Assembly: GCF_963676685.1 (NCBI RefSeq)
Contig: NC_092345.1
Coordinates: 107,570,001-107,634,000 of the forward strand
DNA: 64,000 nucleotides
Reading direction: 5' to 3'
DNA from: Mytilus edulis
Lineage: Eukaryota
This document shows positions 9,001-30,000 of the stretch, piece after piece. Made by a program: the position numbers. Position 1 is the stretch's first letter. Each line of letters starts with the position of its first letter.

Positions 9001-12000
9001 TATAAACTGGTTATCCAGTTTTTTAATAAATTTTCCAAGCATCACTAAAGACACACATTAAAGAGACATAACGTCCAGTGCCAAATATTTCTGCATAGGT
9101 TTTATAGATTCTTTTTTTATGAATATGGTTTTTATGTGATCCACGCTGGTTTTAATTGCAAATTTATTTTGTACTGTATAAATAAACTTTAGACTGTTGA
9201 TTACGTAGTCTCCAGTTGCAAGTACTTTATGCATATTTAGAGCGAACAATAGTTTTGCAAGTTTTAATGTTTTTACAGTTGTATAGTTGTAACTAAACAT
9301 GTCTGCTTACAATTTGCATACGACATAACCGAAATGACACCCCCCACTTTAACCCAGTTTATTCTGCCGGTTTGAAAAAGTACAAACATTCCTTATTTAT
9401 ATTTTTAATGAAATGGTAAAATTAGTACCGGTATATGTTAATAAAATGGCAATAACCAAATAACGCTTGTGTTATGGACACATTTGGGGGTTAGTTGAGA
9501 AATGGACACGTTTTGGGCGTTTATACAAATGACACGCTTTGTCGGTGTTTTCAACTTGACATGTTTTGCAGTTCAGTGACGTTGATGTGGACATGTTTGG
9601 GGGAATCCGACACATTTGAGGGGAAGGACACGTTTCTGAGTGTTACATATATATACAAAATAAAAAAAATAAAATTGAAATATTTGTAAACATGTTTAGA
9701 TTTTATTTTTTTCCCTAGTATGTGCCTTCTTGTAATCTTCGACATATTGAAGTTAATAAGTATTAGGTATAGATGAAGGTGCAAGGAGACCCTAAATGCA
9801 ATTTAAAATTTTTTTTTGCCTTTATGGTCGTGGCACTAGTGCAAATGATTATGATGTCTAGAAAGGCTATTTTATTACTATGCCACTTTACTAATTGACA
9901 AGACGTCTTGAAAAGCTATTTTTTTTTTCAACTAAAATTTGTCATAGGAAGGCGTCACAGATTTTTTTTTTATAGAAGCCATTCTAGACATAATTATTTG
10001 GACTAATATTGATCCTTATAAATGATGTAGGTTACATCAAGTAATTTAGGACTACAATTTCCTTTTTGATGTGTAAAAATGGTAGAGCAGTTGCTTTAAC
10101 TCCCTATTACTGTATCAAACAAGAAATAGCATCTGCTGGTCAATTTTTAATACCTTAATGACTGTTGTAGTTCTAGATCAATCTGTGGCTGCAAAATCAG
10201 AAAATTACCCTGAACACAGAATTCCAATGTCTGGGTAGATGACTATACCCGACTTTAAATAAATCTTTTATGCTTATGCTTTTAATGATGTAGCTTCTTG
10301 CAGAATATTTTTTTGTTTCATGTAAAGAGCTAGCTTGGTGAAAATACAGCTAAGCGTAAAAAGCAGGCCATTCTCCACTAAAACGGCTTTAAAGTATATT
10401 TTAGTGACATCTTGATTTTTTCCAAGCATTCAGTTTATATTCTCCCTACATGTACCTACATAAATATATTCATCTCATTATTTATCACAATTTTTATAAT
10501 CTAAATGTAAAGTCATAACATGGAGCTCATCCAAATTAAGATAGTCCAGGGCAGCCCTATGCTCAATGACTGATGTAGATTTTAGGACTTAATGACGTAA
10601 TATAATGTCTGAAACTAAAAACCCAAAACTTTTACAGAAACATGATGAAAAGAATTTTCAATCTTTCTATAAAAGTTTTAAAGAATTATGAGTATTTAAA
10701 ATGTTAAGCTGCAATCACTGTACGGCATTCAACAATGAGCAAAGCCCATACCGCATAGTCAGCTATAAAAGGCCCCGATAATGTTCTCTTCTTAATGAAC
10801 TAGGTGGCATAGATTTGGAGGGGAAAAAAAAGTTCTTATTGTAATGTTTATTTGTAGAATGGCAGGTAACTTAGATCCAGACCTGATATATAGTACAACT
10901 GAAGAGAAGACATTCAGTAATCAGGATAAATTACCTCCCTTACCTGTACCAGACCTTAGTCATACATTGGACAGATATTTAGATTCTGGTGAGTTATAGC
11001 TACGATTATCTCCCTTACCTGTATTCGACCTTAGTCGTAGACTGGACAGATATTTAGATGCTGGTGAGTTATAGCTAGGATTATCTCCTTTACCTGTACC
11101 AGACCTAAGTCATACATTGGATAGATATTTAGATTCTGGTGAGTTATAGCTAGGATTATCTCCCTTACCTGTACCAGATCTTAGTCATGCACTGGACATA
11201 TATTTAGGTTCTGGTGAGTTATAGCTAGGATTATCTCCCTTACCTGTACCAGATCTTAGTCATGCACTGGACATATATTTAGGTTCTGGTGAGTTATAGC
11301 TAGGATTATCTCCCTTACCTGTACCAGACCTAAGTCATACATTGGATAGATATTTAGATTCTGGTGAGTTATAGCTAGGATTATCTCCCTTACCTGTACC
11401 AGATCTTAGTCATGCACTGGACATATATTTAGATTCTGGTGAGTTATAGCTACGATTACCTCCCTTACCTGTATTAGACCTTAGTCATACACTGGACAGA
11501 TATTTAGATGCTGGTGAGTTATAGCTAGGATTATCTCCCTTACCTGTACCAGATCTTAGTCATACACTGGATATATAGATATTTAGATTTTGGTGAGTTA
11601 AAGCTAAGTTTATCTCCCTTACCTGTACCAGTTCTTAGGCATACACTGGTTAGATATTTAGATGCTGGGTAATTAGCTAAGATTATCTCCCTTAGATTCT
11701 GGCGACTTAGTAATTAGGTTTCCCCATCATATATTTGACAGTCATAATATAGTTGTTATCCTGATCGGACGTCCCCATTTGATGAGGGGCCTAAAAGATA
11801 ACCATTGACTCAAGCCTAAGATTGTGATATTATAGTTACTGTTATATGGAAAGATGTAACAATAAGATTTAAAATGCTTTGACTGCAACTTCTGCAAGAC
11901 TAATATATAGAGATTAATACATGGCCTTTTCCATATCAGCCTGGGTATCATCCTGAGACCCCATATCAGCCCGAGACGGAGTCGAGGTGCTGATATGGGT

Positions 12001-27000: not shown

Positions 27001-30000
27001 ACGACTTACAATATTATATTAAGAACACCTTGTAAGCATAGTGAAACATTCTGTTCCTACTTTTTCTGTGACAAATATATGTGTAATTTTTAATTTTTTT
27101 TAATTTTAGGTTGTGATCGACATTTACTAGGGCTATACCTGTTAGGAAGAGAACAAGGACTACCTGTTCCACAACTATTTACTGATCCTGCTTTTACTAA
27201 AAGGTATTTTGTAAGACTTCCATCTATATGACTGCATTTACATCTGTTACAGTTAACAGTATGCAAAAAAGGCAGACATTTCAAAGTTCTGTCTGTATTT
27301 GATTTTATACAATGAATGAGACTTCAATAACATCTAAAAAAAAAAAATGCTCTAAACATGCTAAATGTAGATGTAAACCAAGAATATTTTTGGTGTAAAG
27401 AGTATCTAAGTTTTACAAAAAAACAAAACAAAGAGATGTGATCGCAACATTTAAAGTGTACCTAGATTCAGTGGTGGCAGTGGTAACTTTGCCTTGTCTA
27501 CAAGCTTTGTAGGATACACAACAGTTTATGGTGGATTGGTTCTAATGCCTACATCTGTCTGTGTCCTCACTTATTTTTGTTTATTTTCAGTGGTGACAGT
27601 GGTAACTTTGCCTTGTCTACAAGCTTTGTAGGATACACAACAGTTTATGGTGGATTGGTTCTAATGCCTACATCTGTCTGTGTCCTCACTTATTTTTGTT
27701 TATTTTCAGTGGTGGCAGTGGTAACTTTGCCTTGTCTACAAGCTTTGTAGGATACACAACAGTTTATGGTAGAGTGGTTCTAATGCCTACATCTGTCTGT
27801 GTCCTCACTTATTTTTGTTCATTTTCAGTGGTGGGGGTGGTAACTTTACCTTGTCTACAAGTTTTGTAGGATATACAACAGTTTATGGTAAAATGGTTCT
27901 AATGCCTACATCTGTGTGTGTCCTCACTTATTTTATTTATTTTCAGTGGTGGCGGTGGTAACTTTGCCTTGTCTACAAGCTTTGTAGGATATACAACAGT
28001 TTATGGTGGAGTGGCTCCAATGGTGGAAAATGGTTATGGTTGTTTTTATCACATGGAACCCAAACAGTATGTATACATCAAGCTTAAGTGTTAATTCTAA
28101 GGTTATGGAAAGGATTGATATTGGTGGTGAATACCACTATATTATTTCATGGTACTCTGTTAATACTGAGTTTGTGAGTTCAAATCTATTCATGTGGCAG
28201 ATATGCTCAACTCCAATCTTTATTAACCATGATTGTTTGATTTGTTTTCCTGTCGAAGCCTGGAACTGTGGATTCCTCCACCAAAAAAACTTGAACGCCA
28301 CGAAATATCCAATAATGCTAAAAGTGGCTTAACATCAAACAATTAATCTTGTTTACTATATAGCATGTTTAAACTCAACTTCATTATTCCATTCTAGTTC
28401 TACATTTAATTACATATCTGATGATTATTTACAGAATAGCGGCATAAAATCCATCTGATTATATCATAGAAAGCATTCTAATACCAAATGAAATCACATA
28501 TCTGATGATTATTTACAGAATAGCTGCTGTTGTAACAACATGGAGAAGTTGTAAAGAAACAGATTCTGTTGTGTTTATGAATGAAGTTCACCAATGTTTA
28601 ACAGAGATGGGAAACATGATAGAAAAAGGCCAACAAACACATGCTAAATTATAAATATTAGCTGGCTCGATACAGGTGTTGTGGATTCATTGTTCATAAT
28701 GTGTTGTGTCTTATCTGGCACTGCCTAAATAGTTATTATTATATGATAAACAGATTTATATAGAATAAATCCAATAAGCAGTCAACTTTAATTATCACAA
28801 ACTTGATGTTCCATACAATAATAATTTTAGATACTAGGAGTAAATATTAGACAAATCTTTCAATTTGGGCCAGACATCTTTCCAGGAAATAACAGGAATT
28901 TTTAAATAAAAGAATTGTGAGATAAGGACAGCAATTGCATGTTATTCTGTCAAACATAATTTGATATTTTGTATGAGGTATATGTGCCATAAATATCCTG
29001 TGAGGATAAGGGTTAACTATTTGCTGGTCCCCTTTCAAATCATATTTCAAAATCTGCACTTTTATATTACTTTTTTGTATCGCATTGCTACCATAGAAAT
29101 CGTTTGGAATCCATTCCTTAGATTGTTTATATAAAAGTAATATGTTGGTTGTTCCACAAACTGTTGAAATCAATTAACCATGCATAATTAAGAATTGATT
29201 AATTTGTTACTGTTTACTTAATATAAACTATCCAAAGTTCAAATGAAGTGGATGTAAGCAATTAATTTCTGCTGGGAAATGATAATTAATCATCCATAGT
29301 CATTCAATTGTTTGGTTTTTTTAAGATAAGAAATAACATTTGTGTTCCTTTAATTGATAAATGAATTTTCTGATTATTGGCAAGAGACAATATTGCTCAG
29401 GGTTATTTCATTAGTAAATTACCTCCGTTTGATGTTCTCTGTGTTTTTTGTCAAGTAATGATATTGTTGAGCATTTATTTAAGAAACTGTAATTTTTGTA
29501 TCTTCACATAGAAAGTATTTTTTTTTACTCTTCTCTAATACCAAAGTTATTTTGTATTTTTATGGCAAACAACATTCCATGTCTTTAAGAATTAAGTAAA
29601 TATAGTTTTAATGAGTGTACTTTTATTCAATATTTTTTATCAATTCAGTGATATGTATTTATTGTTTTAATTGAGAAAAGGGAGACTACCTTGTTTTGTA
29701 AGAAACAAAAGTAAAGCATATTTTATTATGACTCTTGTTGAATTCTGACTTATTTTGTGATTTTCATTCGTCATTTTTTTTGGGTTGTAATGTCATAAAA
29801 TTTGATAACTCTTTTGAAATAACTCATATTTGATTGCAGTATTTTTGTGCTGAAAATGCATTTCATTTTGGTATCAGGGGGTAAAAGTGGGGTAACATGC
29901 GTGGAAATAACCTAAATAAAGAATGAATTTCAAATTCTTCCATGAATGTTTCACGATAACAATTATGATAATTATTTGTGTCAGTTTTTAACTGATAGTC

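What the first reader, a model, noticed from the sequence alone, without database searches (positions are those of the whole stretch)
10930..28530. Systematic tandem amplification of splice junctions throughout one gene
Seen: at least six CROT exon boundaries are themselves units of tandem duplications: exon 1 donor (75 bp), exon 8a acceptor (~43 bp), exon 10 acceptor (51 bp), exon 10 donor (~79 bp), exon 14 acceptor (119 bp) and exon 15 acceptor (one copy near 28412-28440). Other minisatellites sit just beside exons 4, 7 and 9. Donor arrays run downstream with the first copy functional; acceptor arrays run upstream with the last copy functional. Inference: either a mutational process is focused on exon borders (transcription/splicing-coupled or nucleosome-edge slippage), or ubiquitous duplications survive only in this geometry. 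This could be the route by which the duplicated catalytic exon arose.
Basis: partly seen in the sequence, partly recalled or inferred. Interest (0 to 1): 0.72.

Follow-up and report, generated by a model that had tools for sequence, protein, structure and literature searches.

The report
Splice-junction minisatellites in a CROT gene
Six exon borders of one carnitine octanoyltransferase gene are repeated in tandem inside the neighbouring introns, a curiosity already described in lancelets ("mirages") and in a few human genes, which here leaves the known messenger RNA unchanged.

Summary
A 15-exon CROT gene (10859-28654, + strand) has 30 splice junctions, counting the extra exon 8a. Six of them lie inside tandemly duplicated units: E1 donor, E8a acceptor, E10 acceptor, E10 donor, E14 acceptor and E15 acceptor. 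Three more arrays end 4-27 nt from exons 4, 7 and 9. Nearly all of the 24 tandem decoy copies keep a consensus GT or AG.

The "first donor / last acceptor is functional" rule is correct, but any tandem duplication across a junction must look like this. Every decoy I tested would put an in-frame stop into the mRNA.

Against a uniform-placement null, 6 junction-spanning families are seen where 1.9-2.3 are expected (P 0.006-0.016). Strict counting gives 4 against 1.8 (P 0.08). The gene was picked because it looked odd, so a junction-focused mutational process is suggested but not shown.

About a quarter of the whole window is tandem repeat. My best reading is ordinary small tandem duplications in a repeat-rich genome, filtered for viability.

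The phenomenon is already in print as amphioxus "mirages" and as the human F7, IFI6, CBS, LMNB2 and PDGF minisatellites. My searches found no mollusc report.

Exon 8a/8b is a 111-bp tandem duplication of the same size class.

The parts
10859..28654 (+). CROT-like gene, coding part: 15 exons plus alternative exon 8a. E1 10859-10988, E2 12980-13104, E3 13592-13773, E4 14527-14654, E5 15002-15207, E6 15476-15589, E7 19680-19781, E8a 22790-22873, E8b 22901-22984, E9 23929-24036, E10 24622-24752, E11 25260-25383, E12 25926-26004, E13 27110-27203, E14 27947-28066, E15 28519-28654.
   Evidence: tblastn of P0001 and P0002. GT-AG at every junction, and lengths sum to 621 codons. P0001 scores 617 bits against CROT structures versus 268 bits against CRAT. 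PF00755 matches exons 3 and 5.
10930..11694 (+). E1 donor array. The 75-bp unit is the last 59 nt of exon 1 plus the first 16 nt of intron 1. There is one functional copy and 9 decoys.
   Evidence: 8 of 9 decoys keep G|GTGAGT; the last has a 3-nt deletion. A stop lies 9 nt past the real junction.
22694..22808 (+). E8a acceptor array. The 42-bp unit is 23 nt of intron plus 19 nt of exon, including the catalytic His codon. Two decoys lie upstream of the real acceptor.
   Evidence: A direct repeat, TATTTATAG / TATTTAAG, brackets the unit.
22773..22996 (+). 111-bp tandem duplication holding the whole 84-nt catalytic-His exon: E8a 22790-22873 and E8b 22901-22984, separated by a 27-nt spacer.
   Evidence: 73% nucleotide identity over 118 columns; 12 of 28 residues identical; reading through the spacer meets TAG. 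P0001, P0002 and P0003 all carry the 8b form.
24453..24638 (+). E10 acceptor array. The 51-bp unit is 34 nt of intron plus 17 nt of exon. Three decoys (the third truncated) precede the real acceptor.
   Evidence: All three decoys keep TTTTAG|. In-frame stops fall 12-48 nt after each decoy AG.
24686..25140 (+). E10 donor array. The 79-bp unit is the last 67 nt of exon 10 plus 12 nt of intron 10. There is one functional copy and 5 decoys.
   Evidence: 4 of 5 decoys keep A|GTAAGT; the last has TT. A stop lies 2 nt past the real junction.
27467..28022 (+). E14 acceptor array. The 119-bp unit is 43 nt of intron plus 76 nt of exon. Four decoys precede the real acceptor.
   Evidence: All 4 decoys keep TTTTCAG|. 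In-frame stops fall 130-157 nt after each decoy AG.
28390..28527 (+). E15 acceptor duplicate: 28390-28443 is a copy of 28474-28527 (45 nt of intron plus 9 nt of exon) at an offset of 84 nt.
   Evidence: 46 of 54 identical, E=2e-12. A stop falls 10 nt after the decoy AG.
14128..14499 (+). Intronic 50-55-bp arrays ending 27 nt before the exon 4 acceptor.
   Evidence: No homology to the junction (p=0.74).
19786..20348 (+). Complex array of an 11-nt motif, starting at intron position +5 after the exon 7 donor.
   Evidence: No significant homology to the exon side (p=0.29).
23344..23904 (+). Intronic 72-bp x 7.7 array ending 24 nt before the exon 9 acceptor.
   Evidence: No homology to the junction (p=0.38).
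20954..21020 (+). Dispersed copy of the E8a acceptor unit, 1.8 kb upstream in intron 7.
   Evidence: 55 of 66 identical, AG kept.
26370..26440 (-). Inverted single copy of the E10 donor unit, in intron 12.
   Evidence: It spans a unit-to-unit boundary, so it was copied from the array and not from the exon.

Best explanation
These are 'mirage'-type minisatellites. Small tandem duplications (42-119 bp) happened to start in an exon and end in the neighbouring intron, or the reverse, and were then amplified by further unequal exchange or slippage.

The genome region is very rich in tandem repeats, so such duplications arise all along the gene. A duplication wholly inside an exon breaks the reading frame and is lost. 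One inside an intron, or across a junction, leaves the mRNA intact and can persist.

Across a junction, only the copy contiguous with the exon body can make the normal mRNA. The other copies sit in the intron as decoy splice sites.

The spliceosome most likely ignores the decoys because the real acceptor-donor pair is the closest pair across each exon. This combines exon definition with the 5'-to-3' preference for the most upstream donor shown for human F7. Any transcript that does use a decoy carries a premature stop.

Shown here: the arrays, their register, which copy the known transcript uses, and the stops. Inferred: the duplication mechanism, neutrality, and how the decoys are ignored.
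For: - Arrays and register.
- Background: tandem repeats cover 26.6% of the gene span and 24.8% of the rest of the window.
- Catalogue: 17 local duplication families in the gene, of which 10 are purely intronic, 6 span a junction and 1 holds a whole exon.
- Ages differ in both classes. Junction arrays show 79-97% matches and intronic arrays 63-95%, so this is a continuing process and not one burst.
- The units share no k-mer beyond what the null gives, and breakpoints fall at varied distances from the junction.
- A short direct repeat brackets the 42-bp E8a unit, as slippage would need.
- The transcript-like protein P0001 aligns colinearly to the first donor copy and the last acceptor copy at every array.
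- In-frame stops fall 10-157 nt after each of the 10 decoy acceptors tested, and 9 and 2 nt past the two real donors, so ahead of every decoy donor.
- Precedents: in human F7 only the most upstream of several identical donors is used, and lancelet mirages at both kinds of boundary do not disturb splicing (passages read in PMC1557585; PMC3087553; PMC3902484).
Against: - A uniform-placement model with a viability filter predicts 1.9-2.3 junction-spanning families, and 6 are seen (P=0.006-0.016).
- Counting arrays within 30 nt of a junction as well, 9 of 16 are seen against 3.0 expected (P=0.0007).
- 18.5% of exonic bases lie in an amplified unit against 5.5% of intronic bases. Bases are not independent, so no valid P value attaches to this.
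- These figures point to something beyond uniform origin plus filtering.
- Decoy sites are nearly all intact, and nothing here shows that they are really silent.
- No reads or second haplotype were available to confirm copy numbers.
Confidence: 0.6

Rival explanations
1. Exon borders are true hot spots for small tandem duplications, through a mutational process coupled to transcription, splicing or chromatin.
For: - About a threefold excess of junction-spanning families in this gene.
- Three further arrays end 4-27 nt from junctions.
- Fragments of two junction units have also been copied elsewhere in the gene.
- In lancelet, several unrelated genes show the same thing, and those authors call its origin unclear (PMC3087553 passage).
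Against: - This is one gene, chosen because it looked unusual. With strict counting the figures are 4 against 1.8 expected (P=0.08).
- The units share no motif.
- Breakpoints are not at a fixed distance from the junction: 9-76 nt on the exon side and 12-45 nt on the intron side.
- Arrays next to exons 4, 7 and 9 do not contain the junction.
- 10 of the 17 families are purely intronic.
Confidence: 0.22
2. The excess comes from longer survival or easier detection. Arrays anchored to an exon would be sheltered from large deletions, and one copy is held constant by selection, so they stay recognisable longer than purely intronic arrays.
For: - Exons are a little richer in G+C (37.2% against 32.3%).
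- Some intronic arrays sit at the limit of detection, with 63-77% matches.
- The sheltering effect near exons is established population-genetic reasoning, recalled and not tested here.
Against: - Most junction arrays are young, with 85-97% matches, and are far from any detection limit.
- Two intronic arrays are equally young, at 90% and 95%.
Confidence: 0.1
3. The decoy arrays are functional. For example, they might tune expression by diverting transcripts to nonsense-mediated decay, or recruit U1/U2 to strengthen weak exons.
For: - Among the 24 tandem decoys, 8 of 9 E1 donors, 4 of 5 E10 donors, and 8 of 10 acceptors as scored keep their consensus site. The remaining two are the E8a tandem decoys, read from the sequence.
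- All decoys tested would give premature stops.
Against: - At 5-15% divergence, intact short motifs are expected without any selection. The one 3-nt deletion and the one GT-to-TT change match that rate.
- No expression data were available.
- In lancelet and in human F7 such sites are reported as silent.
Confidence: 0.05
4. The arrays are assembly artefacts.
For: The lancelet globin paper notes one mirage that was wrongly assembled in a draft genome (PMC3087553). Copy numbers in arrays are generally unreliable in assemblies.
Against: - Copies differ from each other by 3-21%.
- They show nested patterns of shared substitutions, which collapsing or mis-joining of reads does not create.
- There are no N runs in the window.
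Confidence: 0.03

Closest known systems
Amphioxus 'mirages': minisatellite-like tandem duplications of exon/intron boundaries (Adh3, globins BflGb6 and BflGb9, troponin C, PGBD5)
   Same: The unit contains part of an exon plus the adjoining intron end. Both 5' and 3' boundaries are affected. Units are tens to about 160 bp long, and copies keep the AG/GT signals. The normal mRNA is still made. The cases occur in a repeat-rich marine invertebrate genome, and their origin is unexplained (passages of PMC3087553; PMC3902484).
   Different: This is a different gene (CROT) and apparently a different phylum. Here six junctions of one gene are affected. Length polymorphism and somatic instability, reported for lancelet, could not be tested. 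The founding paper (Canestro et al. 2002, PMC117041) is not held, so I know it only through citing papers.
Human minisatellites whose first monomer spans an exon-intron boundary: F7 IVS7 (37 bp), IFI 6-16, CBS IVS13, LMNB2, PDGF
   Same: The donor site is reiterated downstream in the intron. The most upstream copy is the one used, and the pseudo-sites are intact but normally silent (passages of PMC1557585).
   Different: Those are single donor arrays, one per gene. Here there are acceptor arrays as well, and several in one gene. In F7 only 4 nt of exon lie in the unit; here 9-76 nt do.
Tandem exon duplication giving mutually exclusive exons; intron gain by internal tandem duplication (Rogers model)
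   Same: E8a and E8b have equal length (84 nt) and phase, lie next to each other, are homologous, and both have consensus sites. The 27-nt spacer is too short to be spliced out. That it is too short is recalled knowledge of minimum intron length and of the steric-hindrance mechanism.
   Different: No transcript with 8a was seen; P0001, P0002 and P0003 all carry 8b. None of the arrays has yet created a new intron or exon.

Membership tests
Mirage-type junction minisatellite | The tandem repeat unit contains an exon-intron junction, with exon sequence on one side and intron sequence on the other. | tested here: met
   6 of 30 junctions. Exon part 9-76 nt and intron part 12-45 nt.
Mirage-type junction minisatellite | The terminal copy contiguous with the exon body is the one used in the mRNA. 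| tested here: met
   P0001, a 620-aa protein from a 2093-nt contig and therefore spliced, aligns colinearly to the first donor copies and the last acceptor copies. It comes from another individual or a close relative (98% identity over the exon-3 query).
Mirage-type junction minisatellite | The duplicated copies keep the AG/GT signals. | tested here: met
   Donor decoys: 8 of 9 (E1) and 4 of 5 (E10). Acceptor decoys: 4 of 4 (E14), 3 of 3 (E10), 1 of 1 (E15), and 2 of 2 tandem for E8a.
Mirage-type junction minisatellite | Regular splicing is not disturbed. | tested here: inconclusive
   The normal product exists. How often decoys are used cannot be seen without RNA reads. Any such use gives a premature stop.
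Mirage-type junction minisatellite | Copy number differs between haplotypes or individuals. | not testable with these tools
   No reads, no second haplotype and no eukaryotic genome collection were available.
Mutually exclusive duplicated exons (E8a/E8b) | Adjacent homologous exons of the same length and phase, each with its own splice sites. | tested here: met
   Both are 84 nt and phase 0. Both have TTTATAG| acceptors and CAG|GT donors. They share 12 of 28 residues.
Mutually exclusive duplicated exons (E8a/E8b) | Both exons are used, one per transcript. | tested here: inconclusive
   Only 8b is seen, in P0001, P0002 and P0003. Indirect support for 8a comes from counts made by eye. 8a matches 8b at 8 of the 11 positions that 8b shares with mouse CROT, but at only 4 of the other 17 (Fisher P=0.019). 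8a equals mouse CROT at 11 of 28 positions, the same number as 8b.
Carnitine O-octanoyltransferase (CROT) | Carn_acyltransf domain, with the best match to CROT among the carnitine/choline acyltransferases. | tested here: met
   PF00755 on exons 3 and 5. P0001 scores 617 bits against mouse CROT structures versus 268 bits against CRAT. The nearest Atlas clusters are named CROT.
Carnitine O-octanoyltransferase (CROT) | A catalytic histidine and a peroxisomal targeting tail. | tested here: met
   E8b aligns residue for residue to mouse CROT 327-354, starting at His327 (weak E=1.1 for 28 aa). The protein ends in AKL. That AKL is a PTS1 signal, and that His327 is catalytic, are recalled.

The most novel reading that the evidence does not exclude
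Exon borders are genuine hot spots for small tandem duplications in repeat-rich marine invertebrate genomes. The same unexplained process that makes lancelet 'mirages' would then operate in a distant phylum. It would be a steady source of decoy splice sites, of duplicated exons that become mutually exclusive (as E8a/E8b may have), and of new introns.
Probability: 0.2. Interest if true: 0.7.

Novelty: new member of a known kind. Interest (0 to 1): 0.35.

Why it matters
If the excess at exon borders held genome-wide, it would point to a mutational mechanism tied to gene structure, and to a concrete supply route for exon duplication and intron gain. That route has been discussed since Rogers' model but is seldom caught in progress.

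As it stands, the locus is a clear and unusually dense example of a known curiosity. It is useful as a natural test of how the spliceosome picks one site among up to ten identical donors or five identical acceptors. It is also a warning for gene predictors in repeat-rich genomes.

Tried and rejected
- **Hidden junction homology in the arrays beside exons 2, 4, 7 and 9.** Local alignment against shuffled targets found none (p 0.29-0.74).
- **A common sequence motif in the 17 units.** None beyond the null.
- **RNA genes in the arrays.** Rfam gave 0 matches in the whole window.
- **Other spliced genes in the window as an unselected control.** Only a single-exon BTB_2 reading frame was found, at 1-1251. 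Three other long reading frames had no Pfam match. No control was therefore possible.
- **Isoforms carrying exon 8a or decoy copies.** The 28-aa exon is below the 40-aa minimum of the search for homologous proteins. PDB and Pfam searches with 8a found nothing.
- **Taxon.** Not established. The Atlas call (57) only confirmed the CROT family.
- **Fisher test on bases inside units.** Rejected as invalid, because bases are not independent events.
- **The 149 further hits (P0004-P0152).** Not used.
- **Literature on molluscs.** Two searches found no report of junction-spanning repeats. The one candidate, PMC6905558, describes an ordinary intronic minisatellite.

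
Full report
**What is there**

The window has no N runs and is 67% A+T. TRF reports 51 rows of tandem arrays in 64 kb. Tandem repeats cover 26.6% of the gene span and 24.8% of the rest of the window.

A search with the translation of one exon returned two unnamed 620-aa proteins. P0001 is 98% and P0002 81% identical to that exon-3 query. Each comes from a contig of about 2 kb, so they are spliced products.

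Aligning them to the window by tblastn, which treats each exon separately, gives 15 coding exons on the + strand from 10859 to 28654. It also shows a second, unused copy of exon 8. Every junction is GT-AG, and the exon lengths without exon 8a sum to 1863 nt = 621 codons.

Exons were searched one at a time.

P0001 matches mouse CROT structures at 617 bits, against 268 bits for carnitine acetyltransferase. Exons 3 and 5 match PF00755. 'CROT' is therefore right.

Nothing in the window looks human.

I ran BLASTN of all 16 exons with 60-nt flanks against the window and made in-register alignments. 6 of the 30 junctions lie inside locally duplicated units:

| Junction | Unit | Exon + intron part | Decoy copies |
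|---|---|---|---|
| E1 donor | 75 bp | 59 + 16 nt | 9 |
| E8a acceptor | 42 bp | 19 + 23 nt | 2 tandem, plus a dispersed copy at 20954-21020 |
| E10 acceptor | 51 bp | 17 + 34 nt | 3 |
| E10 donor | 79 bp | 67 + 12 nt | 5 |
| E14 acceptor | 119 bp | 76 + 43 nt | 4 |
| E15 acceptor | 54 nt copied at an 84-nt offset | 9 + 45 nt | 1 |

Splice signals survive in nearly all decoys. 8 of 9 E1 donors and 4 of 5 E10 donors are intact, and so are all of the acceptor decoys.

The arrays next to exons 4, 7 and 9 end 27, 4 and 24 nt from the junction. They do not contain the junction.

**The geometry is forced**

This is not a regularity that needs explaining. After any tandem duplication across a junction, only the copy next to the exon body can give the old mRNA.

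Reading on from exon 1 or exon 10 meets a stop 9 nt and 2 nt past the junction, before any decoy donor. Each of the 10 decoy acceptors tested is followed by an in-frame stop within 10-157 nt.

**Is it more than chance?**

I catalogued 17 local duplication families in the gene span from TRF and self-BLASTN. Six span a junction, one holds a whole exon, and ten are intronic.

I collapsed each array to one unit, giving 13,863 nt. I then placed each unit uniformly and kept only viable placements, meaning intronic or junction-spanning.

| Counting | Seen | Expected | P |
|---|---|---|---|
| Base model, 16 families | 6 | 1.88 | 0.006 |
| Without the young inverted-repeat element in intron 6 | 6 | 2.30 | 0.016 |
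| Without four small TRF-only arrays | 6 | 1.67 | 0.003 |
| Both E10 arrays as one event, E15 copy dropped | 4 | 1.77 | 0.08 |
| Junction-spanning or within 30 nt of a junction | 9 | 2.96 | 0.0007 |

The young inverted-repeat element is described.

So there is roughly a threefold excess in this gene. But the gene was flagged because it looked odd, and the window offers no second spliced gene as an unselected control. The excess is therefore a lead and not a result.

**Mechanism**

- The units share no motif beyond the null.
- Breakpoints lie at varied distances from the junction.
- Array ages range widely in both classes, with 63-97% matches.
- The 42-bp E8a unit is bracketed by a short direct repeat.
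- The arrays show nested shared substitutions, typical of stepwise amplification.

My best reading is ordinary slippage or unequal exchange in a very repeat-rich region, followed by a viability filter.

I infer, but have not shown, why the decoys are ignored. The real acceptor-donor pair is the closest pair across each exon (exon definition, recalled). For donors, the most upstream site is preferred, as demonstrated for human F7 (PMC1557585, passages read).

**Exon 8a/8b**

The catalytic-histidine exon is present twice, at 22790-22873 and 22901-22984, as a 111-bp tandem duplication. The copies are 73% identical in DNA and share 12 of 28 residues.

The 27-nt spacer carries the donor of 8a and the acceptor of 8b, and it contains an in-frame TAG. 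A gap that short cannot be spliced out (recalled), so at most one copy can enter an mRNA.

P0001, P0002 and P0003 all carry 8b. There is indirect evidence that 8a is still constrained, based on counts made by eye:
- 8a agrees with 8b at 8 of the 11 positions that 8b shares with mouse CROT, but at only 4 of the other 17 (P=0.019).
- 8a is as close to mouse CROT as 8b is, at 11 of 28 positions each.

The acceptor plus the first codons of this exon occur five times: at 20982, 22694, 22736, 22778 and 22889.

**What is known**

The pattern has a name. [quoted passage not shown] They occur at both 5' and 3' ends, do not disturb splicing, and have an unexplained origin. They have been proposed as a route to new introns (PMC3087553, passages; PMC3902484, passage).

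Human F7, IFI 6-16, CBS, LMNB2 and PDGF have donor-spanning minisatellites (PMC1557585).

My searches found no mollusc report (candidate read). This covers only the held library.

**Verdict**

The feature is real and carefully observed, and the gene is correctly identified. It is a new and dense example of a known kind. The claim of a junction-focused mutational process remains open.

Noticed in passing
window 15676-18630: Intron 6 holds a young element. It has 239-nt inverted arms (15676-15914 and 18392-18630, 96% complementary) around 2.5 kb that contains a reverse-transcriptase fragment (16198-16648, RVT_1).
   Followed up: partly
window 1-1251 (+): An open reading frame of 417 aa runs off the left end of the window and has a BTB_2 (potassium-channel tetramerisation type) domain. 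It is the end of an upstream gene, in a single exon within the window.
   Followed up: partly
window 32342-36285, 52973-54704, 55646-58127, 62498-63787: Four large, homogeneous satellites: 356 bp x 11 at 98% matches, 66 bp x 26, 68 bp x 36.5 and 46 bp x 28. About a quarter of the whole window is tandem repeat. I could not tell whether any of them touches an exon of an unrecognised gene.
   Followed up: no
window 26370-26440 (-): A single inverted copy of the E10 donor unit lies in intron 12. It spans a unit-to-unit boundary, so it was copied from the array. This hints at template switching or re-insertion of array fragments.
   Followed up: partly
window 20954-21020 (+): A stand-alone copy of the exon 8a acceptor plus its first codons lies 1.8 kb upstream in intron 7, next to a small 29-bp repeat at 21046-21100.
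   Followed up: partly
window 22874-22900: Only 27 nt separate exons 8a and 8b. They hold the 8a donor, the 8b acceptor and an in-frame TAG. This is a compact arrangement that would force one-or-the-other use.
   Followed up: partly
window 10850-10858: An acceptor-like TTTGTAG sits 1 nt before the start codon. The gene probably has an untranslated first exon further upstream, which would add junctions I did not count.
   Followed up: no
window 11695-11714: Just past the end of the E1 donor array as TRF reports it, there is one more degenerate donor-like remnant, with GC in place of GT. The array is therefore slightly longer than the reported coordinates.
   Followed up: no
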